The notes below the pieces were generated by a model. The model searched no databases. It was not told where the DNA came from and saw nothing but the letters and a program-made list of their open reading frames with translations. The translations under genes were made by a program, and so were the position numbers. This document shows, piece after piece, positions 4,431-36,079 of a stretch of 40,797 nt of DNA; position 1 is the stretch's first letter, and each line of letters begins with the position of its first letter. This stretch comes from Deltaproteobacteria bacterium (GTDB lineage Bacteria > Desulfobacterota > Deferrimicrobia > J040), in the NCBI GenBank assembly GCA_003696505.1, contig RFHC01000076.1, positions 1 to 40,797 of the forward strand, written 5' to 3'.

Positions 4431-6386
4431 TCAGAGAGCGCCCTTCTGCTTCGTGTAAGCCAGCCTTCCGCCGGCAAGGAGAATCTCAATCTGCCTCTGC
4501 GAGAGGGTGTGGGTGAGTTCGAACTCGTACCCTTTCGTCGCGTTCACCGCTTTGACGCGGTCGCCCTTCTGGATGTCCTCCTTCACCGAGGGGAGTTCGA
4601 TTCTGTCCCCCTGGTCGATGCGGTCGTAATCGCTCTCGTTCACAAACAGGAGCGGGATGATTCCGAAGTTGACCAGGTTTGCCGAGTGGATTCTCTCGAA
4701 GGACTTGGCGATGACAGCCCGGACACCCAGATAGCTGGGGCATATGGCGGCGTGCTCTCTCGAACTTCCCTGACCGTAGGACATCCCTCCCACGATGACG
4801 TTGTGGACGCCCTTCTCCTTGTTTTCGAGTGCCCTCTTGTGGAATTCGGGGTCCACCGTCTCGAAAACGAAGGTGGCGTACTTCGGGATGTTGGAGCGGT
4901 ACTTGAGGCGCGAGCCTGCGGGCATGATGTGGTCGGTCGTAATCTTGTCCCCCACTTTGAGGGTGACCTCGCCCCTGATTGCGTCAGGCAGGGGAGCAGG
5001 CTCGGGAGGATTGCCGATGTTGGGCCCTCTCCTGATTTCCACCGTCGCTGGGTCCTCGGCGGGAGGGATAATCATCGAGTCGTCGATGATGAACTTCTCG
5101 GGGACCTGGACGTCGGGGTACTCGATGCCGAGCTCTTCCGCCACGTCCCTCGGGTCAGCAATCTCGCCCTTCAGGGCGCAGGCAGCTGCCGTCTCGGGAC
5201 TGACGAGGTAGACGCCGGCGTCCTTCGTGCCGGACCTCCCGAAGAAGTTCCTGTTGTTCGTCCTGACGCTGACCCCCTTCGAGGGAGGAGCCTGACCCGC
5301 GCCGATGCAGAATCCGCAGGTGGACTCGAGAATCCGCGCACCGGCTTCAACGAGAGTCGCGAGGGAGCTCTCCTTCGTCGCCATGAGGAGGACCTGGCGC
5401 GACCCGGGAGCAACGCCGAAGCTCACCCTCGGGTGAACCTTTCTCCCCTCGAGAATTTTCGCCACCGTCGTCACGTCCTTGTACGAGGAGTTCGTGCACG
5501 ACCCGATGAGGACCTGGTCAACGGGAAGGCCTGCGATGTCCCTCACCTTCACGACGTTGTCGGGGCTGTGGGGCTGCGCCACCATCGGTTCAAGCTCGGA
5601 AAGGTTCAGGTCGATGACCCTGTCGTACTCGGCATCGGGGTCCGCTTCCAGCGGGACCCAGACCTCCTCCCTTCCCTGCGCCCGGAGGAACGCCCGGGTG
5701 ATTTCGTCGGAGGGGAAGATGCTCGTCGTCACGCCCAGTTCAGCGCCCATGTTCGTGATGGTGGCTCTCTCGGGGACGCTCAAGGTCTTCACCCCCTCGC
5801 CGCCGTACTCGACGACCCATCCCACGTTGCCTTTGGTCGTCAGGATTTCCAGGAGTTTGAGAATCACGTCCTTCGCCGAGACGAACGGCCTCAGTTTCCC
5901 CGTCAGGTTCACTTTCAGGACCTTCGGATAGGTGAGGTAAAAAGGACCGCCCGCCATGGCAATGGCCACGTCGAGGCCGCCGGCCCCGATGGCGAGCATC
6001 CCGATTCCGCCGTTCGTGGGAGTGTGAGAATCGGACCCGAGAAGGGTCTTGCCGGGAGCGCCGAACCGCTCGAGGTGAACCTGGTGGCAGATGCCGTTTC
6101 CCGCTTTGGAGTAGTAAATCCCGTACTTCGCGGCCACGGTCTGCAGGTAGAGGTGGTCGTCAGCGTTCTCGAACCCCTCCTGAAGCGTGTTGTGGTCCAC
6201 GTAGGAGACGGAGAGTTCCGTCCTCACCCTCGGAATCCCCATCGATTCGAACTGGAGATAAACCATCGTCCCCGTGGCATCCTGGGTGAGGGTCTGGTCT
6301 ATGCGGATACCCACCTCCTTGCCGGGGACGGGCTCACCGCTGACCAGATGAGCATCGATGATTTTCTGAACAATGTTCTTCCCCAC
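4431..6386 (-). CDS. acn: aconitate hydratase, short (~650 aa) Aquifex-type aconitase family
   Basis: GTG start with AAGGAGG 5 nt upstream. Motifs seen: IRIDQTLTQDATG, GSDSHTPTNGG, IGSCTNSSYKD, STCGFCIG and GQGSSREHAA (Fe-S ligand and active-site motifs of the aconitase family). Confidence 0.9.
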   Translation of the reverse strand: MGKNIVQKIIDAHLVSGEPVPGKEVGIRIDQTLTQDATGTMVYLQFESMGIPRVRTELSVSYVDHNTLQEGFENADDHLYLQTVAAKYGIYYSKAGNGICHQVHLERFGAPGKTLLGSDSHTPTNGGIGMLAIGAGGLDVAIAMAGGPFYLTYPKVLKVNLTGKLRPFVSAKDVILKLLEILTTKGNVGWVVEYGGEGVKTLSVPERATITNMGAELGVTTSIFPSDEITRAFLRAQGREEVWVPLEADPDAEYDRVIDLNLSELEPMVAQPHSPDNVVKVRDIAGLPVDQVLIGSCTNSSYKDVTTVAKILEGRKVHPRVSFGVAPGSRQVLLMATKESSLATLVEAGARILESTCGFCIGAGQAPPSKGVSVRTNNRNFFGRSGTKDAGVYLVSPETAAACALKGEIADPRDVAEELGIEYPDVQVPEKFIIDDSMIIPPAEDPATVEIRRGPNIGNPPEPAPLPDAIRGEVTLKVGDKITTDHIMPAGSRLKYRSNIPKYATFVFETVDPEFHKRALENKEKGVHNVIVGGMSYGQGSSREHAAICPSYLGVRAVIAKSFERIHSANLVNFGIIPLLFVNESDYDRIDQGDRIELPSVKEDIQKGDRVKAVNATKGYEFELTHTLSQRQIEILLAGGRLAYTKQKGAL

Positions 6387-6451
6387 GATGACCTCCTTTT
6401 CCGGGTATTTATCGAGTTACTGCTGAAAGGTGTCCGGGAAAACGTCATTCA

Positions 6452-6480
6452 TATTATTACAGAGAGGGTGTGTTGACAAC
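6452..6480 (-). promoter_or_regulatory. candidate sigma70-type promoter for acn
   Basis: The minus strand reads TTGTCA (6480-6475), a 17-nt spacer, then TAATAT (6457-6452). This lies about 65 nt upstream of the GTG start. Confidence 0.45.
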
Positions 6481-6495
6481 ACTCTTCTCCCCGCC

Positions 6496-6524
6496 TTGAG
6501 ACGACCTCCCCGCTGTGGTATAGA
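6496..6524 (+). promoter_or_regulatory. candidate promoter for the ClC gene
   Basis: TTGAGA (6496-6501), a 17-nt spacer, then TATAGA (6519-6524; TAGAAT overlaps it). If used, the TTG start at 6533 would be nearly leaderless and ATG 6560 becomes the more likely start. Confidence 0.25.
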
Positions 6525-6532
6525 ATGGGAGA

Positions 6533-8359
6533 TTGAGTCAACTTCTCTTCGGCAGGGAAATGAACGATCTCTGGAAAACCCTTTCAGGATTCACGACGAA
6601 GCGGGTGGCGGACCCGGTCAGGAACGTCATCTTCCGGACGCTATCGAGACTGGGCGTCACCGTTCAATCCTTCAACATCCTCCTCGCCGTCGTCGTGGGT
6701 GTCCTTTCGGGCCTCGGCGCAGTCGTCTTCATCAAGCTCATCGACCTTTTTACGTGGATATTCTTCGACAAGGTCCACGGCGACCTCCTGGGGAGGACCC
6801 GGGCGCTCATCTTCATCCTCCCCGCAATCGGAGGACTCCTCATCGCACCTCTCATCAAACTCTTCCCCACCGAGGCGAAGGGTGACGGCGTCCCCGACGC
6901 CATGGAAGCGATAACCCTGAAGGGGGGTATTCTCAAGCCCCGCACCACCCTCATCAGGACCTTCACGGCGGCTGCCACACTCGGGTCAGGCGGCTCGGTG
7001 GGAAGAGAGGCTCCCATCGCCCAGATAGGAGCGGCCCTCGGGTCGAGCGTGGGACAGTTTCTCCGCCTCTCGGGAGAAATGATGAAGACCCTCGTGGGGT
7101 GCGGCGCAGCAGGAGGCATCGCCGCTGTCTTCAACGCCCCCATCGGCGGCGTCTTCTTCGCCCTGGAGGTGATGATAGGGGACTTCTCCCTCCAGACCTT
7201 CGGCCCCATCGTCATCTCCTCCGTCATCGCAACGGTGACGATGAGGGCGTTTCTGGGCGACATCCTCCAGTTTCAGGTCCCCCACTACGAACTGAGGAGC
7301 GCCATCGAGTTCGTCCCCTACGCGGTCCTCGGAGCGATATGCGGGGTTCTCGCCGTCGGATTCATCCGCCTCCTCGACTGGACAGAAGAGTTCTTCAACG
7401 ACCGCCTCCGGGTAAACCCGCTCCTGAAGCCCGCCATCGGCGGTCTCATCGTCGGCCTCATTGCCATACTCTTCCCCCAGATACTCGGGACGGAGATGGA
7501 ATCGGTGAACACCGCCCTCTTCGGACAGGGCGCCTGGTTCTTCCTCCTCTTCCTGGGGCTCCTCAAGATATTCACCACCTCCGTTTCCATCGGGTCAGGA
7601 GGGTCGGGAGGCGTCCTGGGTCCTTCTCTCTTTATCGGGGGAATGCTCGGGGGAGCCATCGGGAAGGTTTTCTCGCTCCTCTTCCCCTCGGTGGTAACAA
7701 CACCCGGCGCATACGGGCTCGTCGGGATGGGAGCCTTCCTCGCGTCGGTGGTCCACGCTCCCATCACGGGAATAATGATCGTATTCGAGATGACCAACGA
7801 CTACAAGGCGATTCTCCCCCTCATGGAGGCCACCATCATTGCCATGGTGGTAGCGAAGAGACTCCTCCCCTACTCCCTCTACACGTACAAACTCCACCTC
7901 AGGGGGATTGACATCGTCTCGGGAAGGGAGATGGGAGTCCTCAAGTCGCTCCGGGTTTCCGACATCATGAAGAAGGAATTCACCACCATTTCCCCTTCGG
8001 CAACCTTCGACGAGATGGTCAACGTCTTCATCAACAACCCGACGAATTACCTCTACATACTGGACGGCGACCACCGGCTCGCCGGGGTCGTCTCCTTTTC
8101 CGACATCAAGTCATTCGTGAAGGATGAAGAACTGGCACACCTGGTGAGGGCGTACGACGTCGCGACCACAGACGTGGTCTCCGTCTGCCCGGACGACGAC
8201 CTCTACACGGCGCTCAACCGTTTCGGATACAAGAACGTTGAGCAGCTCCCGGTCATCGATAACCCCATCACGAGAAGGCTCATCGGGGTCATCTACCGGA
8301 AAGACCTCCTCCAGGCATACCAGAAGGAACTCATCAAGATGGAGTTCCGGGAGGAGTGA
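6533..8359 (+). CDS. ClC-family voltage-gated chloride channel / H+-Cl- antiporter with C-terminal CBS pair
   Basis: ClC signatures seen: GSGGSVGREAPI, NAPIGGVFFALE and GVLGPSLFIGG. The C-terminal ~140 aa (VSDIMKKEF...LPVIDN...IGVIYRKDLL) form two CBS motifs. The track start is TTG 6533. An alternative start is ATG 6560 (MNDLWKT). Confidence 0.9.
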   Translation: MSQLLFGREMNDLWKTLSGFTTKRVADPVRNVIFRTLSRLGVTVQSFNILLAVVVGVLSGLGAVVFIKLIDLFTWIFFDKVHGDLLGRTRALIFILPAIGGLLIAPLIKLFPTEAKGDGVPDAMEAITLKGGILKPRTTLIRTFTAAATLGSGGSVGREAPIAQIGAALGSSVGQFLRLSGEMMKTLVGCGAAGGIAAVFNAPIGGVFFALEVMIGDFSLQTFGPIVISSVIATVTMRAFLGDILQFQVPHYELRSAIEFVPYAVLGAICGVLAVGFIRLLDWTEEFFNDRLRVNPLLKPAIGGLIVGLIAILFPQILGTEMESVNTALFGQGAWFFLLFLGLLKIFTTSVSIGSGGSGGVLGPSLFIGGMLGGAIGKVFSLLFPSVVTTPGAYGLVGMGAFLASVVHAPITGIMIVFEMTNDYKAILPLMEATIIAMVVAKRLLPYSLYTYKLHLRGIDIVSGREMGVLKSLRVSDIMKKEFTTISPSATFDEMVNVFINNPTNYLYILDGDHRLAGVVSFSDIKSFVKDEELAHLVRAYDVATTDVVSVCPDDDLYTALNRFGYKNVEQLPVIDNPITRRLIGVIYRKDLLQAYQKELIKMEFREE

Positions 8360-13104: not shown

Positions 13105-15138
13105 TCAACTCCTGTCGAACCTGAGGAATTTCATCGTGAAACTCCCTCTTCCCTGCGTGAGGGAGCGCAGGTCTGTCGCATATCCGAACATCCTCCTCAG
13201 CGGCACCGTCCCGTTGATGACGGAGATGCCCGGCCTCTTGTCCACGGATGTTACCTTCCCTCCCCGTGAAGAGAAATCGCCCATGACACCTCCGAGGAAA
13301 TCCTCCGGGACGGTAATCTCTATCGACATGATCGGTTCGAGGAGGACGGGAGATGCCGCCCGGTACGCCTCGAGAAAGGCTGAGGCACATGCCACCTTCG
13401 TTATCTGAGGAAGGTGGTTCCCGTGCGGGAATTCGGCAGAAAGGACCTCAACGGAAATGTCCTCCACCGGATACCCGAAGGCGCCGTAACCTGAACCTTC
13501 CTCAACTCCCAGAAGGAGAGCCTCCCTGATGTTCTCGGGAAGCCCCTCCAGCGACTCTGAGAGGAAAACCCTGACTCCCTCGCCCCGCTTTCTCGGAGAA
13601 ACTCTCACTCGAACGCGGCAGGAGTACGGGACATCCTCGATGACCCTTTCGAAATAACCCTCCCCCTCGCCTTCGGCCTCCACGGTCTCCCGCATTATCA
13701 CCTCCGGTCTCCCCACGCGGGCGTTCACGTTGTAAAAGCGGCGCATCTTGTCCACCGATATCTCGAGCTGGAGTTCGCCCACTCCGGAGAGCACGAGCTG
13801 ACCCGTTTCCTCGTCCTCTGTCAGGTGGAGAGTCGGGTCCTCTTCGGTTATCTTCGCCGCCACTTCCTTCAGCCTGTCCAGGTCGCTCACCCGTTCCGGC
13901 TCGAGGGTTATGGATATGACCGGTTTCCGGATTTCAATCGGCTCGAATTCGATGGGGTGGTCGGGATTGCTCAGGGAATCTCCCGTCCCCACGTTCCTGA
14001 AACCCCGAACCGCCACGATGTCCCCCGCCTGCGCGAGGTCCACTCTCTCCTTCTTGCCGGCGTGCATCCGGAAAAGACGTGCCACCTTCTCCTTCTCCCC
14101 CGTTCTCACGTTGAGCACCGTCTCCCCGGGCCTGAGCTCGCCGGAGTAAATCCTCATGAGAACCGTCTTCCTCCCCTCCTCCATGAGAATCTTGAAGGCG
14201 AGGGCTGAGAATGGCTCGTTCACGTCCGGAGCCCTCTCAATCCACTCCCCCGTCCGGGGGTCCCTCCCCCGGGCAGGAGGAGCATCGAGGGGGGACGGGA
14301 GGAAAGCGACAACGGCGTCGAGGAGGGGCTGGACGCCTTTGTTCTTCAAGGCAGAGCCGGCGAAGAGAGGGTGTATCTCCCCCTTCAACGTTCCCCTCCT
14401 GAGTGCGGAGACGAGGAGCTCCTCCGGCACCTCCTTTCCCTCCAGGTAGAGTTCCGCCACGTCGTCGTCGAAATCTGCTGCAGCCTCCAGGAGCTTCTCG
14501 CGAAACTGGTGGGCCTCGTCCACGAATTCGGAGGGAATCTCACCCTCAACGACCGTCTTCCCCAGGTCCTCCTCTGAGAAGGTGAGGGCCTTCATTCTGA
14601 CGAGGTCGACGACCCCGCGGAAGGAATCCTCGGCTCCCATGGGGATAGTCACGGGCACAGGACGGGCGGAGAGCTTCTCCTCCATCTCCCTCGCAACCTT
14701 CCAGAAATCCGCGCCCGGCCTGTCCATCTTGTTCGCAAACGCGAGGAGGGGAATACCGAATTTGACTGCCTGATTCCACACAACCTCGGACTGCGGCTCC
14801 ACTCCCCCAACGGAACAGAAAACTGCCACTGCCCCGTCGAGGACGCGAAGGGACCGTTCCACCTCTATGGTGAAGTCCACGTGTCCGGGGGTGTCGATGA
14901 GGTGAATCTCTCCCTCCTTCCACTGAAACTGGGTTACGGCCGCGGTAATCGTTATTCCCCTCTCCTTCTCCTGGGGGAGATAGTCCATCTGCGCCTCCCC
15001 GTCGTGGACCTCGCCGATGCGGTAACTGATGCCGGCGTAGTAGAGAAAACGTTCCGTCAGCGTCGTCTTCCCCGCGTCTATGTGTGCAATTATCCCGATG
15101 TTCCGGATGCGGGACACTCTCTTCCGAAAATCTCCCAC
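13105..15138 (-). CDS. fusA: translation elongation factor G paralogue (EF-G2-like, 677 aa), not in an str-operon context
   Basis: GTPase motifs: [14 protein letters not shown] (G1), [28 protein letters not shown] (G3), ANKMDR (G4). Full five-domain length. GTG start with GGAGGG upstream. Confidence 0.9.
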
Positions 15139-15148
15139 GAGGCCCTCC

Positions 15149-17527
15149 TCAGAAGTTCTTCCTCGTCAGGTTGAAGGCAGATGAGCCTTCTATCCCCTTG
15201 CCCTTCAGGATATTATCGACGACCCTTCTCCCTTCTTCAACGGGCAGGCCTGACAGGTCGATGAGGAAGTCCGAAACTCCCGCCTTCATCACCTCCTCAA
15301 TAAAGTCGACGGCGCAGAAGTATTCAGAGGAGAATATTTCCGTTCCCTCCTTCCCGAACCTGACGACGAACTCCTCGTCGAAGCGGGAACGGACGACTTT
15401 CTCCCCCTCGCCGGGAAAGACGATGAGAGGACTCTTCAGGAGCGGAACGCGGGTAAAGACCGTGAATATGCCGAGCCCCCTCAGATACTTCCCCATTTTC
15501 CTCAGGTTTTCCAGCGTCAGCTCGAGGGGCAGGATGAACCTCTTCACCCCCATATCTTCGAGAGCTATGGCTGATGAGGTGTTGAAGACGTAAAGGTAAT
15601 GGTCGCTTATGACTTCTTCCAGGCGAATTCGTGCCTCCCGGAAAACGCGGAACCAGCCCAGGTCGGGAACGACGAATTTTCGGAAACCCATCCGTGAGAG
15701 AGTCTCCAGCCCCCGACGGTAAAACGAGATTCCCTGGTCCGTCTGCGCCAGGGGAAGGCGGATGAAGACGCGCTCCCTCGGGAGAGGGGCGAGCTTATCG
15801 GGATTTCTCACGTGGGATTTCCGGAGCGAGAGGATGATTCTCTCTCCCCTGTCGAGAAACTCACGGGCGGAATCCACGGAATCGACGGCGATGCTGAAAG
15901 TGAGGGGCCTCCTCTCCCTCCGCGACCCCTTCAGCCTGAGATGCCTGATAATCTTGACCCGGAGCGATTTCCCCTCCAGGTAGACATCTCTGTCGAAGGC
16001 CCGGGATGCATCGTCGAAAGCTCTGAGCACCTCCTCCAATGAAACCTCCGGCTCGCCCTCAATTCTCACCCGCACCTCAGAAAGGGGGATATCGCCCCGA
16101 TACGCCTGAGCGAGGAGCCCCTCAACCTCAGGGGGAGACAGCTCGAGAGGCCTGCCGGCGCCGGAAACGCGAAAACGGTATATTTGCCCGTATTTCCTGA
16201 ACCTCCCCTCCACGACGATGGCGCTTCCCCGAATCGTCACCTCGAAGGTGTGGCCTGCTGATGGAAGGGACGCGAAAGTTCTGACCGCCCGCGCGGTTTC
16301 CTCTCTCCTCTCCCTCGACGAACCCACCCGGAAAATCATATCTCCCGGTTTTACGGGCAAAGGGACTTTGACCCAGGGGGCTCCATCCCTGACCGAGACG
16401 ACGGAGGCGGTGAAACCAACTCCCTTCCCCGTTTCCCCGTCCTGGACCCTCAACCTCTCGCCCCGGGAAACCTGTGGGTCCCCCTCAATTCTCACGTAGG
16501 GAGGGGAAACCTCCTGCACCCTTCCGAGAAATTCGCCCACGGCCGCTTCCTCCTCAGAGGAAACGACGCTCCTCTCTCTCTCTCCTCCCAGGACCCCTTT
16601 CGTGCTCGGCCTGCCGATGACACGGCCGAGAATCGCCTTCCCCTCTTCCACGCCTCTCTCCGGCTCGCCTGCCCGTATCCTGTCAAGAGCCCTCCTGTAC
16701 GCCCGCACGACGTTTCTCACGTACTCGACACTCCTCAATCTCCCCTCTATTTTCAGAGCCGCGACTCCGAGGCGAACCAGGTCGGGAAGCACGTCAATGA
16801 GACAGAGGTCACGGGCGGAGAAAAACGGAGCCTCCACCCCCCCTGCGTCGTAGACACGCCTGCAGGGCTGAACGCACTCCCCCCTGTTCCCGCTCTTTCC
16901 TCCCAGGTAACTCGAAAAGAGACACCTCCCCGACAGGGAGAAGCAGAGCGCGCCGTGGACGAATACCTCCACGCCGATGGGACTCCTCCGGACGAGGCTC
17001 TTCAACTCCTCCATCTCCAGGTGCCTTTCCACGACAAGCCGGGCAACACCCATCTCGTGGAGCACAGAAGCCACACGGGAGTTGCAGTTCCCCATGAGGG
17101 TGGAAGCGTGTATCTCGGCTTTCGGGAAATAGCGCCGGACGATGCGAATCGCCCCCAGGTCGGAGAGAATGAGCGCGTCGGGGTCGAAAAGCAGGGCGCC
17201 GTGGACCATGTCGATGAAGCGGGGGAGTTCTCCCTCGAGAATTTGAGAGTTCAGAGTGAGGTAAACCTTCACTCCCCGGCTGTGGGCGAACGGCACCAGT
17301 TTTCCCAGGTCGGGGAGAGAAAAGTTTTCCCCCCTCTTTCTCGCGTTGAACTCGCCCAGACCGAGGTAAACCGCATCCGCCCCCTCCTCGACAGCGGCGA
17401 AGAAGGTCTCCAGGTTGCCCGCAGGGGCGAGCAATTCCGGGAAGGGAATTTCCCCCTTTCCCTTTTCCCGGCGGGAGCGGGGTTTATCCTTCTTCCTCCT
17501 CTTTTTGCCCCTCTTCTCCATGGTCAC
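15149..17527 (-). CDS. U32-family protein (peptidase U32 / Fe-S hydroxylase family), long two-module form
   Basis: U32 features: [26 protein letters not shown] and the Cys motif [12 protein letters not shown]...[10 protein letters not shown]. The N-terminal tail is very basic ([21 protein letters not shown]). The C-terminal ~230 aa look like a second, Cys-less U32/TIM-like module. The start is GTG 17527 (overlaps the upstream stop) or ATG 17521. Confidence 0.85.
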
Positions 17528-18372
17528 ACCCGGAAAACCCCCCGCCGGGAAAACCCGAGGTTGTTTGCCCGGATGTCGAGGGTCACGGTCGCCATGTCCT
17601 CGAGGGGAAAAGACGCCTCGTCCGGCGGGGATTCAACTGTGATGAACTTGACGTAAGAGTTGCAGGAAAGGCAGCAGCGGACGAAACCGCCCCGCCCGTG
17701 AAACGTGAGGAAATCTCCTTCTTCCCCCGCACCGCAGAGGAGGCACCGTCGGGGCGGATGGACCCAGAAGTTCTCACAGAGAGAGCAGACCAGGTTCAGC
17801 TCGGTCCTGTTCCCCCTGGCCGTTGCAGGGAAAAAGCCGACGAGCGGGAGAAACCCGCAGACGGGGCAGAAAGCTTCCTCCCACGGCACGCCCTCCAGAT
17901 GGTCCCTCAGTTCCCTCACGAGCCCCCTCATCTGAGGGTTAAGGGCCCTCGCGAGAACGAAGAAAAGGCTCTCTGTCCGCACCTCGTCGAGGGAAAGGTC
18001 TCTCTCAAAGTATCTCTCGTCGCGAGCGAGAAACCGCATGGCAGCCTCGGGAAAAGGAATCCTCCCCGAAAGTGCAGAATCGAGGAGGTCCGACATTATA
18101 CCAGACCAGCGGGAGAGGACGGTGAGCACGTAAACGCTCAACTCCCTGAGTGCCTCCGCGTCGATGGAAACTTCTTCCGCCCTCAGGAGCGGAAACCCCC
18201 GTTTAACCCTTTCTCCGACGAGGACCTCCACCGGTCCTGGAGGGTCCCACCGGGCTCCTCCCCCCTTTCCGGACATCCTGGTGATGTCCGAATACGCGCG
18301 GAAGAGGTCGGAAAGCCAGGGAAAGACCCGGGAAAGGTAGGCCACTCTCCTCTCAACCCGCGAAACGCCCAC
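17524..18372 (-). CDS. FdhE-like protein (four CxxC, rubredoxin-type)
   Basis: CPVCG, CSLCE, CLLCG and CLSCN occur with FdhE-like spacing and a ...YVKFITVE... tail. The preferred start is GTG 18372, with GGAGGGAG 6 nt upstream. The longer track ORF (to 18522) would overlap the divergent Grx-like gene. Confidence 0.7.
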   Translation of the reverse strand: MGVSRVERRVAYLSRVFPWLSDLFRAYSDITRMSGKGGGARWDPPGPVEVLVGERVKRGFPLLRAEEVSIDAEALRELSVYVLTVLSRWSGIMSDLLDSALSGRIPFPEAAMRFLARDERYFERDLSLDEVRTESLFFVLARALNPQMRGLVRELRDHLEGVPWEEAFCPVCGFLPLVGFFPATARGNRTELNLVCSLCENFWVHPPRRCLLCGAGEEGDFLTFHGRGGFVRCCLSCNSYVKFITVESPPDEASFPLEDMATVTLDIRANNLGFSRRGVFRV

Positions 18373-18452
18373 TCCGTGCTCCCTCCACTGTTTTCTTTTT
18401 AGTTTACCCCTTTCCCGGGGATGCTGCCGTCGCCTCCCCCCGGTCCTTAGAG

Positions 18453-18458
18453 TATAAT
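18453..18458 (+). promoter_or_regulatory. possible -10 box (TATAAT) for the Grx-like selenoprotein gene
   Basis: The sequence agagTATAATtgaacg lies 30 nt upstream of ATG 18488 and is followed by SD GGGAGGAG (18472-18479). No clear -35 was found. Confidence 0.3.
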
Positions 18459-18487
18459 TGAACGTAAAAAAAGGGAGGAGTCGGGAT

Positions 18488-18700
18488 ATGTCGAAAAAAG
18501 TCATCATCTTCGGCAAGAACACGTGACCCTACACGATGCGCGCCCGTGAGGACTTCGCGCGGAAAGGGTACGAAGTGGAATACCACGACGTGACCGCAGA
18601 CCCGTCCCGGAAAGACGAGATGATCAAACTCTCGGGAGGCCGGCAGGTCCCCGTCATCGTGGAAGAGGGGAAGGTAACTGTCGGTTACGGGGGTACCTGA
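18488..18700 (+). CDS. glutaredoxin/NrdH-like thioredoxin-fold mini-protein with in-frame UGA (probable selenocysteine) at the active site
   Basis: The frame reads MSKKVIIFGKNT-[TGA 18524-18526]-PYTMRAREDFARKGYEVEYHDVTADPSRKDEMIKLSGGRQVPVIVEEGKVTVGYGGT-stop (18698-18700). One frame runs through the TGA. The TGA replaces the first Cys of the CPYC-type motif. The cis-Pro context (QVPVI) and the GY tail fit the Grx fold. There is a strong SD. The ORF is invisible in the track because the TGA splits it. Confidence 0.7.
18537..18561 (+). promoter_or_regulatory. candidate bacterial SECIS hairpin downstream of the UGA
   Basis: Lower stem UGCGCG (18537-18542) / CGCGCG (18556-18561), including one U-G pair. 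Upper 2-bp CC/GG stem closing a GUGA (GNRA-type) loop at 18546-18549. The 3' side carries an ACUU bulge. The apical loop lies 22 nt after the U of the UGA. Confidence 0.4.
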
Positions 18701-18714
18701 GGGGTCTGACTTAC

Positions 18715-18733
18715 CTCCCGCCGTGCGCGGGAG
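18715..18733 (+). terminator. GC-rich hairpin after the Grx-like gene (weak terminator or attenuator)
   Basis: ctcccgc (18715-18721) / gcgggag (18727-18733) form a 7-bp stem with a 5-nt loop. It is followed by AAACGGTTTCTC, a poor U-tract. Confidence 0.3.
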
Positions 18734-18766
18734 AAACGGTTTCTCACGAAAAGGAGGTCAAAAGAT

Positions 18767-19393
18767 ATGAAAAAAGGCAAAGGAAGTCTGTATCTGTGCA
18801 TTCTCCTCGCCCTTCTGCTTTCCCTGCCGACGGCAGCGGGAGCTCTCACGAACTCATTTGAGACGGCATCAACGAGCGCTGAGGGGAGCGTGTGGGGGAA
18901 TCTGGGTCTCTCCAGCAGGGACGACTACTTCTCCCTCTTCGTGTCCGGACACTACGGATACACCGAAGCAGTCGAGCTTTCCGCACGGGGCGGTCTCCTC
19001 ACCGTAGACCGTCCGAAGGACGACAAGACCGGTGTCCTCCTCGGAGTGGGTGGAAAAATGAGAGCCGCAATCTTCGGCGACCCCTCATACCCCGAAGTTG
19101 CGCTCTTCGCCAGTTACGACTTCGGATTCGCCGACGGGAAAGCCCTCCACTCCCTCGAAGGAGGGGTCCTGGCATCGAAGAACTTCATGAAGGAAGACGG
19201 GTCCCTCGGAATAACCCCTTATGGAGGTCCCTCCATCGAGGTCCTCGGCGGGTCCCTGAGCGACGACACCGATATCAACATCCACCTCACGGCCGGGGCC
19301 CGGATAACCTTCCAGTCGCAGTTTTCCCTCTCCCTTGAAGCGAAAGTGGGAGGAACCTCATCTTACGGTATATCCCTGAATTATCAGTTCTGA
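18767..19393 (+). CDS. small outer-membrane beta-barrel protein (OmpW/OmpX-size)
   Basis: Signal peptide MKKGKGSLYLCILLALLLSLPTAAGA. The body shows an alternating hydrophobic beta-strand pattern. The C-terminus ...YGISLNYQF ends in Phe. SD AAAGGAGG. Confidence 0.7.
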   Translation: MKKGKGSLYLCILLALLLSLPTAAGALTNSFETASTSAEGSVWGNLGLSSRDDYFSLFVSGHYGYTEAVELSARGGLLTVDRPKDDKTGVLLGVGGKMRAAIFGDPSYPEVALFASYDFGFADGKALHSLEGGVLASKNFMKEDGSLGITPYGGPSIEVLGGSLSDDTDINIHLTAGARITFQSQFSLSLEAKVGGTSSYGISLNYQF

Positions 19394-19415
19394 CAACACG
19401 AACCGGAGGTGTCCC

Positions 19416-19898
19416 ATGTCCCCTTACTCGCAGGAAGTTCTCAAGTACCTGAATCTCGGCATTGAATCGGAACTCCAGGCCTACGTCTTCTACAAGAAGG
19501 TCATGGAGAAAATCAACGACGAGGAGACGCTCGAAGCGGTGAGAAAGCTCGCCGAGGACGAGAAGCACCACTTCCTCCAGCTGGAAGATGAGTACGACAA
19601 GAGCGTTCGCTCTGAGATGTGGGCCCCGTACAGAGACATCATGAGGAAAGAGGGGCTTCCCGACATCGACGAGCACATCTCCGAGACGCACAAGGAACTC
19701 CTGGCGCGGGTCGATAAATTGAAGACGAAGCGGGAAATCTTCGAGGTGGCTCTCGAGCTCGAAAAAGAGGCTTACGAACTTTTCGCCGGGTTTTACGAGA
19801 AGACTGACGATGAAGAAGCGAAAAAGCTCTTTCAGTTCCTCATGAACTTCGAGAAAGGCCACGTCCTGACGGTGGAGAACATGCTGAAGAACCTTTAA
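19416..19898 (+). CDS. rubrerythrin/erythrin-like ferritin-fold di-iron protein (no rubredoxin domain)
   Basis: Two E...ExxH half-sites are present: GIESELQAY...AEDEKHHF and ELEKEAYE...NFEKGHV. The protein is 160 aa. Confidence 0.75.
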   Translation: MSPYSQEVLKYLNLGIESELQAYVFYKKVMEKINDEETLEAVRKLAEDEKHHFLQLEDEYDKSVRSEMWAPYRDIMRKEGLPDIDEHISETHKELLARVDKLKTKREIFEVALELEKEAYELFAGFYEKTDDEEAKKLFQFLMNFEKGHVLTVENMLKNL

Positions 19899-20000: not shown

Positions 20001-20687
20001 TCACCCCTCAACCCACGGCTCGTCAGAGTCGAAGTCAATTTCCTTGGGTGGGCGGTACTTCTTGTTCAACTCGATAACCTCGCTGGAGAGTTTGTACTCC
20101 TCGTAAATGGACGTGAGTTCCTTCATGTGGTCCATTTCGTCGAGCCTTATCGTCCCGATAGCCCACTGAATCTCGGGACTTGAGAACGTGTTGAGGCCCT
20201 TCTCGCACAGCTCGATGGCCTTCTTCTCCCCCTCCAGGTGCCTCTCTATCATCTCCTTCACCGAGATTTTCTCTTCCTTCCGGGCTGATGCAGGCACGGG
20301 CCTGGGCGTGCCCCCCAGTTTTCGGATGAGCTGAGTGAGCATCCGCGCGTGCTCCACCTCCATCGCCCCGAATTTTCTCAACCTCTCGGCGAGTTTCCGG
20401 TCCTCCATGCTGTCGGCGTGAAGGTTGTAGTCGAAAATCCCCTGGTATTCGACGCGGAGCATGGTGTTGAGAAACTTCACGACGTCGTAATTCTCGATTC
20501 CCTCCCCGGCATACCGGGAAACCTCTTCGGCGTCCTTTTCCGCTCGCTCCTTGAGGTCCCGGAGAAATCCCTCCAGGTCGGGCATTTTCGCCTTTTCCGC
20601 CTCGAGAATCTTCAGCACCTCCTCTGCTCTGCCGGAAACCGTCCGGAGAAGTTCTCTGATTTCACCCAGGATGACTCCCTTTTTCAT
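20001..20687 (-). CDS. ferritin-like (bacterioferritin/Dps superfamily) di-iron protein with N-terminal coiled-coil extension
   Basis: Two half-sites are present: LRVEYQG...AMEVEHARML and LEGEKKAIE...RLDEMDHMKEL (E...ExxH twice). The protein is 228 aa. Confidence 0.65.
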   Translation of the reverse strand: MKKGVILGEIRELLRTVSGRAEEVLKILEAEKAKMPDLEGFLRDLKERAEKDAEEVSRYAGEGIENYDVVKFLNTMLRVEYQGIFDYNLHADSMEDRKLAERLRKFGAMEVEHARMLTQLIRKLGGTPRPVPASARKEEKISVKEMIERHLEGEKKAIELCEKGLNTFSSPEIQWAIGTIRLDEMDHMKELTSIYEEYKLSSEVIELNKKYRPPKEIDFDSDEPWVEG

Positions 20688-21955: not shown

Positions 21956-22456
21956 TCACTCCCTCTCTTCGAGGAGGAGAATCACCTCTTTGATGACCTC
22001 TGAGGCCCGTATGAGGGAATCCACGGAAATCCTCTCGTCGACGCCGTGTATCCTCCCCAGTTCGCTCCTCTCGATGACGCAGGGGAGAATCCCGTAGACG
22101 GGAATGCCGAGCCCCCTGTAATAACGGGAGTCGGTGAAACCCGTCGAGAGGTAGGGAAGGACGACGCTCCCGGGGTAGACCCTCTCCAGGGCAGACCGGA
22201 CGAGGGAGAAGTAATCCGTCACGGGAGACCCGGAAGGTGAGGCCGCGTAAATCACCTCAACTTCGATACCGTCAGGAGAGAGAAACTCTTCTATCTCCCG
22301 CGCCACCTTCTCCGGGTCCTTTCCCGGCAGGATTCTCACGTCCACCGTCGCCTCCGCTTTTGCCGGAATCACGTTTGGCTTGAAACCCGCATCGAGCATC
22401 GTGAGGGCGACGGTGTTCCTCGTTATCGCCTCCATCTCCGGAATGGTCCTCGCCAC
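21956..22456 (-). CDS. M20-family metallopeptidase, C-terminal part (frameshifted; see 22423..23223)
   Basis: TRNTVALTMLDAGFKPNVIPAKAEATVDVRILPG is the dimerisation-domain end. STGFTDSRYY and GRIHGVDERISV are C-terminal metal and active-site segments. The track start is only an internal GTG. Confidence 0.7.
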   Translation of the reverse strand: MARTIPEMEAITRNTVALTMLDAGFKPNVIPAKAEATVDVRILPGKDPEKVAREIEEFLSPDGIEVEVIYAASPSGSPVTDYFSLVRSALERVYPGSVVLPYLSTGFTDSRYYRGLGIPVYGILPCVIERSELGRIHGVDERISVDSLIRASEVIKEVILLLEERE

Positions 22457-23223
22457 CTCTCCTCGAGCGAATCTCCCGTAAGCCCCCTCTTTCTCAACTC
22501 CTCGAGCATGAGCCTCACCGGCTCAGTGATTTCCGGCTGCACTTCCCTCGTGAGGAGCCGGTTGAGCGCCCTGATGAGCCGGGCAGGGGGGTCGGAAGGC
22601 GTGGGGCGGGACCCGTGCCCCGCTCTCCCCCGCGCGGTGAGGCGGAGCCAGACGGGACCTTTCTCCCACACGTTGAGGAGGAAGAAGTCTCCCTCCCCGA
22701 AGAGGCCCTTCACTCCGATGCCTCCCTCGTTGAGCCCGAAACAGTTTCCGAAGATGTTCCCGAAGGAGGAGACGAAATATCCGGCCCCCTCGTCTCCTCC
22801 CACCTCCTCGTCGGGGTTGGCCACGAAGAAGACCTTCTTCCTCAGCTTTCCCTTTTCCGAAATTGCCTTGAGCGCCCCGAAGAGGTGTGCCATGCCGAGG
22901 CCCTTCGTATCGAGGGTCCCCCTCCCCAGCACGAATCCGTCCCTCACTTCTCCGGAGAAGGGGGGAAAGGACCATTCCTCCTCCCTGGCGGGCACGACGT
23001 CCATGTGGTGAATGAGGACGACTCCCGGCTCTTCCTCCCCTCCCAGGTTGACCCAGAGGGATTCCTTCTCCGGCGAAACGCCCCCCTTCTCCGGGGAGAA
23101 ACCGTGGTCCCGGAGGAGAGCTTCGAGGAAATCCACGGCTTTCGAGCAGTCGCCGGGAGGATTCACCGTCTCTATCCTGATGTACTCGCAGAGAGACTCC
23201 ACAAGTTTTTCGTCCAGTGACAT
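22423..23223 (-). CDS. M20-family metallopeptidase, N-terminal part (frameshifted)
   Basis: Metal-ligand motifs: VVLIHHMDVVP (His), GRGTLDTKG (Asp), NPDEEVGG (Glu-Glu). EKGPVWLRLTARGRAGHGSRP marks the start of the dimerisation domain. The frame ends in the nonsense tail WRGPFRRWRR. It overlaps the second ORF by 34 nt. Confidence 0.7.
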   Translation of the reverse strand: MSLDEKLVESLCEYIRIETVNPPGDCSKAVDFLEALLRDHGFSPEKGGVSPEKESLWVNLGGEEEPGVVLIHHMDVVPAREEEWSFPPFSGEVRDGFVLGRGTLDTKGLGMAHLFGALKAISEKGKLRKKVFFVANPDEEVGGDEGAGYFVSSFGNIFGNCFGLNEGGIGVKGLFGEGDFFLLNVWEKGPVWLRLTARGRAGHGSRPTPSDPPARLIRALNRLLTREVQPEITEPVRLMLEELRKRGLTGDSLEERWRGPFRRWRR

Positions 23224-23270: not shown

Positions 23271-23867
23271 TCAAAATCTCGCCGTGCCCTTCCTCAATTC
23301 CACGAGGACGAGCTTGATAATCGCCTTCAGCGTCTCGAAGACGCCTATCCCCTTCGTGGCAACCGCTTCAAATTCGGGCACGTTTCGATAGTTCAGGAGG
23401 GAGTGAAGTTCCGAGACAGAAGCGATTTCCTTCAGGTCTCTCTTGTTGTACTGGAGGACGAGGGGAATCCTGTCCAGGTCGTATCCCTGCTCCTTCAGAT
23501 TCACGCGGAGGTTTTCGAAACTCTCCACGTTGGCGTCCATCCGGGAAATCTGTGAGTCCGCAACGAAGACGACACCGTCAACCCCCTTCAGAATCAGCTT
23601 CCGGCTGGCGTCGTAGAAGACCTGCCCCGGCACGGTGTAGAGGTGAAAGCGCGTCTTGAAGCCCCTCACATCCCCCAGGGAGAGGGGAAGGAAGTCGAAG
23701 AAGAGGGTCCGCTCCGTTTCGGTGGCGAGGGATATGAGCTTTCCCCGCGCCTCGGGCTTCATCCGGGAATAGATGTACTGGAGGTTGGTGGTCTTCCCGC
23801 AGAGGCCCGGCCCGTAGTAGACGATTTTGCAGTTGATTTCCCGCGCTGAGTAGTTGATGAACGACAT
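23271..23867 (-). CDS. mglA: Ras-like small GTPase MglA
   Basis: Near-identical hallmarks to Myxococcus MglA: [82 protein letters not shown] and QYNKRD. Confidence 0.95.
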
Positions 23868-23884
23868 CTCGCCCCGGCATCCCC

Positions 23885-24391
23885 CTACTTGAAGAGCTTG
23901 TCGATATCCTCGTCCGTAATCTCCTCGAAGAGGTCTCCGCTTTCCGCTTCCTTCATCTTCTCCTCCACGGTCCGTATGAGGTCGCTTATCTCTCCGCTAA
24001 CCCGGGAAACCTTCAGCCTGACGAGTCCCACCGGAGTGGTCACGTCGAAGATAACGACGAGAATCACCCGGTCCGCGATGAGGGAGATGTGCATGTTGTC
24101 GTGTTCGCCCTGGTGAAAGAGGATGGAGAACTCTTTCTCCCCGATGAGCCGGGCGAGACCTCCGCTGGCCGCGATGTTCCCCGCCGCAAGGGACCCGAGC
24201 GCCGTCGTGTCGTACTCCCCCTCGTCGCCGGCAGAGCAGAGGAGCTGCCCGTTTTTGTCGACGAGGAAGACAACCTTCGCCCTGGCCTCGACGAGGATGC
24301 GGCGCAGGAGGGACTGCATCCGGCGGTATTCCTCTTCCCTGATAATCAGGTGGGTCCCTTCCACTCGATCCCTCCCGTCGGGTTCACCCAT
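23885..24391 (-). CDS. mglB: Roadblock/LC7-domain protein MglB (MglA GAP)
   Basis: It lies immediately upstream of mglA, as in the mglBA operon. Roadblock pattern: [13 protein letters not shown]...[21 protein letters not shown].... Acidic C-terminal tail. Confidence 0.85.
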
Positions 24392-34118: not shown

Positions 34119-35066
34119 TCAGAGAGTGGCTTCCCTGATGAGGGAGCGGGTCTTCTCTGTCCTCTCGGCGTCCCTCCTCGATTGAATCCTCTCCAGCTCT
34201 TCCCTGTACGGACGGATGTCGACGCCTTTCCCCCTTTCGATGCACTCGTCGATGAGGCGCCTGTAGAGGGACACCATCTCCCCCACGAGTCCGGGAGAGT
34301 ACTCCCTTCCCTGTATCTTCAGGGTCGTCACGCCCGCCTCAATGAGGGCCGGAATGTCGTCGAAGATGAAATAGGCGGTGTTGGGAAGGACCACGCTCTT
34401 CTCCCACTCTCCCCCATCCTGCCTCACCTCCCACTCGGTGAGACAGATGCGGTAGCAGAGACCGCCCCGGTTGGGGGACCCGCGGAAGTGTTTTTTCCCC
34501 GTCTCGTCGGGGGAGTGCTCAAACTTCGTGTACGAAGACATGGTGCAGCGGCCGAGGAAGGTGTAGCAGGTGGTGGCGTGGACGAGGACCTCGACGCCGA
34601 CGCCCACCTTTTCCCGTATTTCGCGGATGTCGTCGAGGGGCATCCTGCACTCCGTCACCACCTGAGAAGCCCCTGCATCCTTGTAAAGGAGCGCGTCGTA
34701 AAGGTTGACGATGGTGCACCCGACGCTGGCGTGGACCTTGATTTCGGGGAATTCCTCCTTCACGATTCGCATGAGCCCCGGGTCGGTGAGAATCACGTCG
34801 TCGATGGGGAAGGAAGCAAACTTCTCCATCTTCCGGCGGAAAAGGTCCACCTCGTCCGAAGCGGGGAGGGTGTTTATCGCCACCCTGATTTTCTTCCCCC
34901 TCTCGTGGAGGAAGTCGGCACTCCTCTTAATAGTCTCGTCGTCCATTTCGTATTCCCTGCGCCGGCGGGACCATCCGAGTGCCCCCACGTAGACGGCATC
35001 CGCGCCGCCCTCCGCACAGGCCTGGACCATTTCGAACGTCCCTCCGGACGCGAGAAGCTCAACCAT
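34119..35066 (-). CDS. U32-family protein, UbiU-like
   Basis: U32 features: ELLASGGTFEMVQACAEGGADAVYVG and the Cys pattern TTCYTFLGRC-x29-CYRIC (C-x6-C...C-x3-C). ATG 35066 has GGGAGGTG 8 nt upstream. The track ATG at 35090 has no SD. Confidence 0.8.
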   Translation of the reverse strand: MVELLASGGTFEMVQACAEGGADAVYVGALGWSRRRREYEMDDETIKRSADFLHERGKKIRVAINTLPASDEVDLFRRKMEKFASFPIDDVILTDPGLMRIVKEEFPEIKVHASVGCTIVNLYDALLYKDAGASQVVTECRMPLDDIREIREKVGVGVEVLVHATTCYTFLGRCTMSSYTKFEHSPDETGKKHFRGSPNRGGLCYRICLTEWEVRQDGGEWEKSVVLPNTAYFIFDDIPALIEAGVTTLKIQGREYSPGLVGEMVSLYRRLIDECIERGKGVDIRPYREELERIQSRRDAERTEKTRSLIREATL

Positions 35067-35118
35067 CGAGATGCACCTCCCTGTTTTCATTCCGGAATTT
35101 CAATTTTACCACAGGAAA

Positions 35119-36039: not shown

Positions 36040-36079
36040 CAAGGACTACCTCCGGAATTCTCCCGTCAGGAGGGTGGAT

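What the first reader, a model, noticed from the sequence alone, without database searches (positions are those of the whole stretch)
18488..18700. Unannotated glutaredoxin-like selenoprotein candidate: in-frame UGA at the CxxC nucleophile position (T-U-P-Y-T)
The six-frame track shows no credible ORF in the 18373-18766 gap. Reading from ATG 18488 (SD GGGAGGAG) gives 12 codons, then TGA 18524-18526, then 57 more codons in the same frame up to TGA 18698-18700. The two halves together rebuild a ~70-aa Grx/NrdH/YruB-type thioredoxin fold. The layout is beta1 (KVIIFGK), the redox motif, alpha1, a cis-Pro segment (RQVPVIV) and a GY tail. The TGA sits exactly where the first Cys of CPYC normally is, which is the classic signature of a Sec/Cys pair. 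The resolving position is Thr (UxxT), so this would be a mono-selenol variant rather than a CxxU/UxxC one. An FdhE-like gene is divergently adjacent, and di-iron oxidative-stress proteins follow downstream.
Basis: partly seen in the sequence, partly recalled or inferred. Interest (0 to 1): 0.8.

Follow-up and report, generated by a model that had tools for sequence, protein, structure and literature searches.

The report
Known two-selenocysteine glutaredoxin-like gene (UXX-star)
The gap holds a real but already catalogued small selenoprotein gene (NCBIfam "UXX-star selenoprotein family 1").

Summary
In detail: ATG 18488, in-frame TGA 18524-26, and a glutaredoxin-like sequence on both sides. 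The gene is not new. It matches the curated NCBIfam model NF041114 "UXX-star selenoprotein family 1" end to end (111.8 bits, cutoff 72).

It is followed by Gly-Val and the real stop at 18707-09, so the product is 73 aa with U13 and U71.

In 30 distinct relatives from many phyla, the second site is always TGA plus two codons plus a stop. A 5-9 bp hairpin follows, starting 9-14 nt after that TGA. It shows strong compensatory covariation and looks like a SECIS lying beyond the stop codon. The first site is TGA in 25 relatives and Cys in 5.

TGA is the normal stop in this window (22 of 31 genes), so an altered genetic code is excluded. A second assembly at 99.8% identity carries both TGAs. One relative sits next to selB and tRNA-Sec.

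The source genome's own Sec machinery could not be checked. Function is unknown. I infer a U13-U71 redox pair or a metal-binding pair.

The parts
18473..18480 (+). Shine-Dalgarno sequence GGGAGGAG, with 9 nt between the GGAGG core and the ATG
   Evidence: Read directly from the sequence. The simple scan finds no sigma-70-type promoter in 18250-18850; a lone TATAAT lies at 18453-18458.
18488..18709 (+). Full coding sequence of a 73-aa UXX-star family 1 selenoprotein: MSKKVIIFGKNTUPYTMRAREDFARKGYEVEYHDVTADPSRKDEMIKLSGGRQVPVIVEEGKVTVGYGGTUGV
   Evidence: NF041114 scores 111.8 bits (cutoff 72) over model positions 1-70 of 70, and 98.4 bits with X at both Sec positions. Pfam Glutaredoxin E=1.5e-13. 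Gene identical in the independent assembly L070.
18524..18526 (+). UGA 1 = Sec13, at the nucleophile position of the CxxC motif (U-P-Y-T)
   Evidence: Aligns with Cys11 of E. coli Grx3 CPYC. TGA in 25 distinct relatives, TGC/TGT in 5. Among cluster representatives there are 18 CxxT forms, 11 TGA-read-as-W forms and 63 N-truncated calls.
18537..18561 (+). Candidate SECIS 1 inside the coding region. Window fold: outer stem 18537-18542/18556-18561, inner CC/GG 18544-45/18550-51, apical loop GUGA 18546-18549. The family-conserved compact hairpin corresponds to 18540-18544/18550-18554.
   Evidence: Folds (z = -1.84). Passes the four published bSECIS criteria in my implementation. Family covariation for the compact hairpin is 0.339 vs 0.174 in shuffles (0/500). 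The loop-closing pair is paired in 25/25 and switches CG<->UA at two synonymous third-codon positions. Against: the energy is not lower than synonymous recodings, and the window's outer stem is not conserved in register.
18698..18700 (+). UGA 2 = Sec71, third residue from the C-terminus (the 'U' of UXX-star).
   Evidence: TGA in all 30 distinct relatives, always followed by exactly two codons ([G/E/A/M/R][V/I]) and a stop. No homologue with Cys here among the top 150 of 325 profile hits. The NF041114 model extends over these residues.
18707..18709 (+). True stop codon (TGA)
   Evidence: Position conserved in all relatives as TGA, TAA or TAG.
18715..18733 (+). SECIS 2, lying wholly beyond the stop codon: stem CUCCCGC (18715-18721) / GCGGGAG (18727-18733), loop CGUGC (18722-18726). 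It starts 14 nt after UGA 2, and the loop begins 21 nt after it.
   Evidence: A covariance model built on relatives hits window 18695-18740 at 30.7 bits, E=1.6e-5. On the raw alignment 75% of cells pair vs 57% in shuffles, with covariation 0.495 vs 0.187 (0/500) and all 5 pairs showing compensatory changes. On the fitted alignment the figures are 85% and 0.585. A perfect hairpin of at least 5 bp is present in 27/30 sequences vs 36% of shuffles, with 26 distinct stems and G[U/G] in every loop. 27/30 meet the bSECIS criteria vs 25% of shuffles. No T-run and no terminator call.

Best explanation
Window 18488-18709 (+) encodes a 73-residue glutaredoxin-fold protein of NCBIfam family NF041114, 'UXX-star selenoprotein family 1'. 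It has two UGA-encoded selenocysteines.

Shown here: U13 replaces the first Cys of the CxxC motif (U-P-Y-T). U71 lies three residues from the C-terminus (U-G-V-stop) on a tail that follows the conserved GG motif. Each UGA is followed by a hairpin at the distance expected for a bacterial SECIS. The second hairpin sits entirely in the 3' untranslated region, 5 nt past the real stop.

Inferred, identity of the process: SelB with Sec-tRNA(Sec) binds these hairpins and recodes both UGAs. Termination at either UGA would give a truncated by-product.

Inferred, mechanism (about 0.4 on its own): the protein is a minimal beta-alpha-beta-alpha-beta-beta thioredoxin-fold core that lacks the usual C-terminal helix. 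The resolving Cys of CxxC is lost (Thr16). Its role is taken by the flexible tail Sec, so U13 and U71 cycle between two selenols and an intramolecular diselenide, or a selenenylsulfide in relatives with Cys13. This would resemble the mobile Gly-Cys-Sec-Gly tail of animal thioredoxin reductase. Because the tail Sec is invariant while position 13 may be Cys, the tail Sec is probably the substrate-facing residue. The physiological substrate and reductant are unknown.
For: Family membership: NF041114 111.8 bits vs cutoff 72, end to end; families 2 and 3 score only about 50 bits.

Fold: Pfam PF00462; PDB Grx3 E=1.2e-6. An AF2 model of the 58%-identical relative P0004 has pLDDT 78.9, strands and helices in Grx order, and a tail with pLDDT below 50. 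All top Foldseek hits are glutaredoxins, TM 0.65-0.68.

Two Sec sites: Cys/Sec alternation at site 1 and invariant TGA-xx-stop at site 2 across about 47 loci, 30 of them distinct, from Nitrospirota, Desulfobacterota, Acidobacteriota, Gemmatimonadota, Brocadiales and others.

SECIS 2: covariation and positional tests. The same geometry is described for SaoC: a Sec codion-stop, 10 nt, then a 7-bp stem with a GGU loop (bioRxiv 10.1101/2022.07.06.499078).

SECIS 1.

Standard genetic code: 22 of 31 Pfam-supported genes in the window end in TGA.

Not an error: an independent assembly is identical.

Link to Sec decoding: in relative L052/L053, selB and tRNA-Sec(UCA) lie directly beside the gene.

Literature: the family is listed with motif UxxT and 2 Sec in PMC13188914.
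Against: No selA, selB, selD or tRNA-Sec in the 40.8-kb window, and the rest of the genome is not available, so Sec decoding in this organism is assumed, not shown.

The SECIS 1 energy is no better than synonymous recodings (mean z -0.38). The window keeps only 3 of the 5 family-conserved pairs and relies on a lineage-specific outer stem.

The diselenide mechanism is inference only. The tail is modelled at low confidence and no coordinates were available to measure a U13-U71 distance. No neighbourhood is conserved across the family, so no partner or substrate is indicated. The review cited suggests metal binding instead.
Confidence: 0.85

Rival explanations
1. Same gene and same two selenocysteines, but the two selenolates act as a bidentate ligand for a soft metal or metalloid (Hg, As, Cu, Fe, or a selenium/sulfur species). 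The protein would then be a chaperone or carrier, not a redox-cycling oxidoreductase.
For: [quoted passage not shown] The invariant tail Sec has no Cys counterpart, which is unusual for simple thiol-disulfide enzymes. In this window the gene sits beside rubrerythrin- and ferritin-like genes, and the organism occurs in an iron-rich hot spring.
Against: No metal-resistance or transport genes recur next to the gene in relatives. The recurring neighbours are housekeeping genes: RmlA/RmlD, a LOG-family protein, a NusG-like protein and PTS EI. The glutaredoxin redox features are retained: the nucleophile position, cis-Pro55 and the GG motif.
Confidence: 0.3
2. One reading: a single-Sec, 70-residue 'mono-selenol' glutaredoxin that ends at TGA 18698-18700. 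The downstream hairpin would be only an mRNA-stabilising or terminator element.
For: UGA 18698 could terminate in some fraction of translation events. Gene callers end the ORF there.
Against: Exactly two codons ([G/E/A/M/R][V/I]) and a stop follow this TGA in all 30 distinct relatives across phyla, with T11 and T13 of the alignment invariant. The curated HMM covers these residues, and the score rises from 102.8 to 111.8 bits when they are added. The hairpin has no T-run and is not called as a terminator. It meets the SECIS spacing and loop rules relative to this TGA.
Confidence: 0.07
3. A decayed glutaredoxin pseudogene carrying a nonsense mutation, or only the 54-aa ORF from ATG 18536 is expressed.
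For: Public gene calls give only the 54-aa fragment.
Against: The same TGA column, with an intact in-frame beta-1 strand, start codon and SD upstream, recurs in 25 distinct sequences from many phyla and alternates with Cys. Synonymous-site covariation after the TGA points to a selected RNA structure. There is no SD before 18536.
Confidence: 0.03
4. The organism reads TGA as an ordinary sense codon (Trp or Gly; genetic code 4 or 25), as suggested by database entries that have W at both positions.
For: P0002-P0004 and 11 further cluster representatives are recorded with W at both sites.
Against: 22 of 31 Pfam-supported genes in this window terminate at TGA at their expected lengths. The gene's own third TGA ends the conserved sequence. 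The W entries are what results from calling short contigs under code 4.
Confidence: 0.01

Closest known systems
UXX-star selenoprotein family 1 (NCBIfam NF041114; 'Distant Grx-like protein 1' in the PMC13188914 table; attributed there to Zhang & Gladyshev 2008, with related families attributed to Haft & Tolstoy 2025)
   Same: The HMM match is end to end and above cutoff. The fold, the UxxT motif, the two Sec residues and the C-terminal U-x-x-stop all agree. This gene is a member.
   Different: Nothing defining differs. This copy comes from an uncultured hot-spring organism and has so far been called only as a 54-aa fragment. Its first SECIS uses a lineage-specific outer stem.
Sec-containing glutaredoxin of Clostridium oremlandii / Geobacter type (PF00462, UxxC; Kim et al. 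2011, as cited in PMC13188914)
   Same: Glutaredoxin fold with Sec at the nucleophile position. The structural neighbours of the model include C. oremlandii cGrx1 and cGrx2.
   Different: Those proteins have one Sec, keep the resolving Cys (UxxC) and keep the C-terminal helix. Here the resolving position is Thr, the helix is absent, and a second Sec sits on a C-terminal tail.
Animal thioredoxin reductase C-terminal Gly-Cys-Sec-Gly-stop tail (own knowledge)
   Same: A Sec a few residues from the C-terminus on a flexible tail, paired with another redox residue. The recoding signal necessarily lies beyond the stop codon.
   Different: That is a large flavoenzyme with a eukaryotic SECIS. The partner there is the adjacent Cys, not a distant active-site residue. 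It is an analogy of mechanism, not homology.
SaoC Cys-Sec-COOH selenoprotein (NF040734; Haft & Gwadz, bioRxiv 10.1101/2022.07.06.499078)
   Same: A bacterial Sec codon at the extreme C-terminus with a short perfect stem and a G-containing loop placed after the stop codon at about 10 nt. This is the same SECIS geometry as SECIS 2 here.
   Different: An unrelated protein family with a single Sec and a conserved operon context (Sao). The UXX-star gene has no conserved neighbourhood.
Monothiol glutaredoxins with a second Cys just after the GG motif (e.g. yeast Grx5 Cys60/Cys117; own knowledge, could not be verified in the held papers)
   Same: The active site lacks the second CxxC cysteine, and a partner residue sits just after the GG motif following beta-4.
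   Different: Those have a CGFS motif and Fe-S cluster functions, contain Cys and not Sec, and are longer with a C-terminal helix.

Membership tests
[quoted passage not shown] | Score at or above the curated HMM cutoff (72 bits), full-length match | tested here: met
   111.8 bits over model 1-70/70 with C at both Sec positions; 98.4 bits with X at both; 102.8 bits without the tail.
[quoted passage not shown] | Glutaredoxin/thioredoxin fold | tested here: met
   Pfam PF00462 at 51.2 bits; PDB Grx3 E=1.2e-6. AF2 model of relative P0004 and Foldseek hits are all glutaredoxins.
[quoted passage not shown] | [U/C]-x-x-T motif at the CxxC position | tested here: met
   U-P-Y-T at residues 13-16. The column is TGA or Cys in all relatives.
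[quoted passage not shown] | C-terminal Sec followed by two residues and the stop ('UXX-star') | tested here: met
   TGA 18698, GGG GTC, TGA 18707. The same layout occurs in 30/30 distinct relatives.
[quoted passage not shown] | SECIS-like hairpin after the C-terminal UGA | tested here: met
   18715-18733. CM hit at 30.7 bits; covariation 0/500 shuffles; bSECIS criteria met.
[quoted passage not shown] | SECIS-like hairpin after the first UGA | tested here: inconclusive
   The window passes the bSECIS criteria, and the family shows covariation for a compact hairpin. The energy is not better than synonymous recodings, the window keeps only 3 of 5 conserved pairs, and its outer stem is not conserved.
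Any bacterial selenoprotein | selA, selB, selD and tRNA-Sec present in the same genome | not testable with these tools
   None in the window. The source contig is not retrievable beyond the 1.5-kb L070. A relative (L052/L053) has selB and tRNA-Sec adjacent.
Any bacterial selenoprotein | Selenium actually incorporated at the UGA positions | not testable with these tools
   Needs 75Se labelling or mass spectrometry.
Classical dithiol glutaredoxin (Grx3-type, TIGR02181 / CPYC) | CxxC with a resolving Cys; HMM cutoff | tested here: not met
   Thr at the resolving position. TIGR02181 scores 39.5 bits vs cutoff 90.
   26.5 and 39.8 bits respectively.
FdhE (neighbouring gene 17524-18288, cited as context) | HMM cutoff of TIGR01562 (187.65) and the Pfam FdhE domains (27) | tested here: not met
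   41.4 bits for TIGR01562; Pfam FdhE_C 26.7 and FdhE_central 19.7. It is only a distant FdhE-like Cys-rich protein and is not found next to relatives' genes.

The most novel reading that the evidence does not exclude
The invariant C-terminal Sec, which has no Cys counterpart in any homologue found, is the true catalytic residue. It forms an intramolecular diselenide with Sec13. This would make the family a natural diselenide-based redox carrier on a stripped-down glutaredoxin scaffold, whose second recoding signal works from the 3' UTR of a bacterial mRNA.
Probability: 0.3. Interest if true: 0.55.

Novelty: new member of a known kind. Interest (0 to 1): 0.28.

Why it matters
As a discovery this is modest. 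The family already has a curated NCBI model and appears in the 2025-2026 selenoproteome literature, so a current annotation pipeline would name this gene.

Three things are useful here.
- It corrects the gene model to 73 aa with two Sec. Public calls give a 54-aa fragment or a TGA-as-Trp translation.
- It gives quantitative comparative evidence that a bacterial SECIS can lie wholly beyond the stop codon at a fixed distance.
- It shows that in this family the tail Sec is invariant while the classical active-site position tolerates Cys. That points experiments at the tail.

The family's function is still unknown, so a biochemical study would be new work.

Tried and rejected
1. Source genome's Sec machinery. 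Exact-protein look-ups found only a 1.5-kb Logan contig, so this could not be examined.
2. Primary papers. Haft & Tolstoy 2025 and Kim et al. 2011 are not held. Zhang & Gladyshev 2008 does not use the name 'distant Grx' in its main text.
3. Structure of the window protein. A relative with W at both Sec positions was modelled instead. No coordinates were available, so the U13-U71 distance could not be measured.
4. SECIS 1 by folding energy against synonymous recoding. Not significant.
5. The window's two-tier SECIS 1 as a family-wide structure. No support.
6. Conserved gene neighbourhood. None across the family.
7. Other TGA-interrupted genes in uncovered parts of the window. None credible.
8. 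Weak second CM hit at window 26195. Chance level, inside a long ORF.
9. Rfam. No match in the window or around the gene.
10. Terminator reading of hairpin 2. No T-run and no terminator call.
11. Literature check of the Grx5 Cys60-Cys117 precedent. Not found in the held papers.

Full report
**Observation.** The SD GGGAGGAG lies at 18473-18480 and the ATG at 18488. Twelve codons follow (MSKKVIIFGKNT), then TGA 18524-18526, then 57 in-frame codons to TGA 18698-18700. With the TGA read as Cys, the joined sequence matches Pfam Glutaredoxin at E=1.5e-13 (51.2 bits). The downstream 54-aa ORF alone gives 31.2 bits, so the 12 codons upstream of the TGA carry real homology. In the alignment to E. coli Grx3 (PDB 3GRX/1FOV, E about 1e-6) the TGA falls on Cys11 of CPYC.

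**It is a known family.** NCBIfam holds a curated equivalog model, NF041114 'UXX-star selenoprotein family 1'. The 70-aa reading scores 102.8 bits against a cutoff of 72. The sister models score far lower: families 2 and 3 at about 50 bits, NrdH at 26.5 and YruB at 39.8, all below their cutoffs. [quoted passage not shown]

**The second selenocysteine.** Translating 18 genome loci and 51 metagenome loci that encode relatives showed a consistent pattern. In every family member, the codon after GG[T/S/A] is TGA, followed by exactly two codons ([G/E/A/M/R][V/I]) and then a stop. The window reads GGT ACC TGA(18698) GGG GTC TGA(18707). 'UXX-star' therefore means Sec-X-X-stop. The real CDS is 18488-18709 and the product is 73 aa with U13 and U71. 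Adding the U-G-V tail raises the NF041114 score to 111.8 bits and makes the match end to end (model 1-70/70). With X at both positions it still scores 98.4.

**Cys/Sec pattern.** Site 1 is TGA in 25 distinct sequences and TGC/TGT in 5 (L001, L002, L005, L024, L044). I ran an exhaustive profile search of 1.84 billion cluster representatives. The profile did not include the tail, so it is unbiased about it. The search found 325 relatives. Among the top 150:
- 63 are N-truncated just after site 1;
- 18 are full-length CxxT forms ending at '...GGT';
- 11 have W at both sites, from contigs called under a TGA=Trp code;
- none has Cys at site 2.

The tail Sec therefore looks invariant, while the classical nucleophile position tolerates Cys.

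**Artefact and genetic-code rivals.** TGA ends 22 of 31 Pfam-supported genes in the window at their expected lengths, so TGA is a normal stop here. A Logan assembly of run SRR7905022 (L070) is 99.8% identical to window 17975-19536, with 3 mismatches elsewhere. Its gene is identical, including all three TGAs. That run is sediment from the source pool of Jinata Onsen, an iron-rich hot spring in Japan at about 60 C.

**SECIS 2.** Every distinct relative has a short GC-rich hairpin just past the real stop.
- On a raw MAFFT alignment of 30 sequences, a 5-bp helix is paired in 75.3% of cells against 56.7% in shuffles. Covariation is 0.495 against 0.187 (0 of 500 shuffles reach either value), the slid controls give 0.10-0.21, and all five pairs show double changes.
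- After realignment with a covariance model the figures are 85% and 0.585. This alignment leans towards the structure.
- The model hits window 18695-18740 at 30.7 bits (E=1.6e-5).
- A perfect hairpin of at least 5 bp starts 9-14 nt after the UGA in 27/30 sequences against 36% of dinucleotide shuffles. There are 26 different stems, and every loop has G followed by U or G.
- The published bSECIS criteria are a 3-9 nt loop, a 4-16 bp stem, a G in the first two loop positions, 16-37 nt of spacing, and MFE <= -7.5 (PMC13188914 section 5). In my implementation 27/30 sequences meet them against 25% of shuffles.
- The window element passes: stem 18715-18721/18727-18733, loop CGUGC, 21 nt spacing, -15.4 kcal/mol.
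- There is no T-run and no terminator call.
- The same geometry was described for the C-terminal Sec of SaoC.

**SECIS 1.** The window folds into an outer stem 18537-42/18556-61, an inner CC/GG pair and a GUGA loop. It passes the bSECIS criteria. Of the Sec-type sequences, 13/25 pass against 15% of shuffles. On the ungapped, codon-fixed alignment A4, a compact hairpin (window 18540-44/18550-54) is paired in 81.6% of cells against 72.5% in shuffles. Covariation is 0.339 against 0.174 (0/500). The loop-closing pair is paired in 25/25 sequences and switches C-G<->U-A at two synonymous third-codon positions. Against this, the folding energy is no better than synonymous recodings (mean z -0.38), the window keeps only 3 of the 5 conserved pairs, and its outer stem is not conserved in register. 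I rate SECIS 1 as moderately supported.

**Sec machinery.** The window has no tRNA and no selA, selB or selD. The EF-G-like ORF 13105-15138 is a bona fide EF-G (TIGR00484, 743.8 bits). The rest of the genome could not be reached. In one relative (L052/L053, activated sludge) the UXX-star gene is immediately followed by a convergent selB (SelB winged-helix and beta-barrel domains) and by tRNA-Sec(UCA).

**Fold.** AlphaFold2 on relative P0004 (58% identical, W at both Sec positions) gives pLDDT 78.9. The elements are beta1 5-9, alpha1 14-26, beta2 27-31, alpha2 36-46, beta3 54-57 and beta4 60-63, followed by a tail with pLDDT below 50. The top Foldseek PDB hits are all glutaredoxins with TM 0.65-0.68. 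The protein is a minimal Grx core without the C-terminal helix. In the Grx3 alignment the tail begins where that helix would start, just after the GG motif.

**Context.** The neighbours are a U32-family protein, a distant FdhE-like Cys-rich protein (below all cutoffs), a 208-aa predicted secreted protein, and two rubrerythrin/ferritin-like proteins. None recurs next to the gene in relatives. Their recurring neighbours are unrelated housekeeping genes, so context gives no functional lead.

**Mechanism (inferred).** SelB-dependent recoding of both UGAs gives a protein in which Thr replaces the resolving Cys and a second Sec sits on a flexible tail beside the active site. The most economical reading is a U13-U71 diselenide/diselenol couple, or S-Se in the Cys13 variants, with the invariant tail Sec facing the substrate. 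This is analogous to the mobile Sec tail of thioredoxin reductase (own knowledge). The main alternative, favoured in the review, is that the two selenolates bind a metal or metalloid. Neither could be tested here.

**Verdict.** It belongs to an already curated family, it has two Sec residues and not one, and its genomic context is uninformative. It is a new member of a known kind, of modest interest.

Noticed in passing
L052/L053 6001-8326 (activated-sludge contigs): In this relative the UXX-star gene (6001-6214, +) is directly followed by a convergent selB (about 6250-8181, -) and by tRNA-Sec, anticodon UCA (8235-8326, -). A selenoprotein gene is embedded in the Sec-decoding locus.
   Followed up: partly
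Proteins P0002-P0004 and about 11 further cluster representatives: Public protein databases hold family members with Trp at both Sec positions (e.g. GKDTWPYT...GGTWGV), evidently from contigs called under a TGA=Trp code. Most other members are stored as 42-55-aa fragments. The family is systematically mis-modelled in metagenome protein sets.
   Followed up: partly
window 21956-23223 (-): A peptidase M20 gene is split into two overlapping ORFs in different frames (22423-23223 and 21956-22456). This is either a frameshift (pseudogene) or an assembly error.
   Followed up: no
window 19416-19898 (+) and 20001-20687 (-): Two rubrerythrin/ferritin-like genes give weak, sub-threshold matches to encapsulin ferritin-like cargo families (EncB_fam at about 35 bits vs cutoff 90). 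No encapsulin shell gene was seen in the window.
   Followed up: no
window 15149-17527, 34119-35090 and 35119-36042 (all -): There are three peptidase-U32-family genes. One is an unusually long 792-aa form. The other two form an adjacent pair resembling UbiU/UbiV or TrhP-type U32 proteins (sub-threshold NCBIfam matches for the long one).
   Followed up: no
window 23271-24391 (-): An adjacent Roadblock/LC7 protein and small Ras/Arf-like GTPase, resembling an MglA/MglB-type pair.
   Followed up: no
window 18707-18769: Reading through the gene's true stop (TGA 18707) stays in frame with the downstream 208-aa secreted-protein gene (ATG 18767). This is probably coincidental.
   Followed up: no
L070 / SRR7905022: A 99.8%-identical copy of window 17975-19536 occurs in the Jinata Onsen metagenome (Japan; iron-rich hot-spring source pool at about 60 C). 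This indicates the likely habitat of the window's organism.
   Followed up: partly
Representatives P0071, P0098, P0100 and P0122; P0056/P0057: Some relatives keep a full CxxC motif yet still end at '...GGG/GGT', where a tail TGA would follow. P0056 and P0057 read 'GGTWCFW', that is U-C-F-stop. Variants combining a dithiol motif with the tail Sec may exist, possibly UXX-star families 2 and 3.
   Followed up: no
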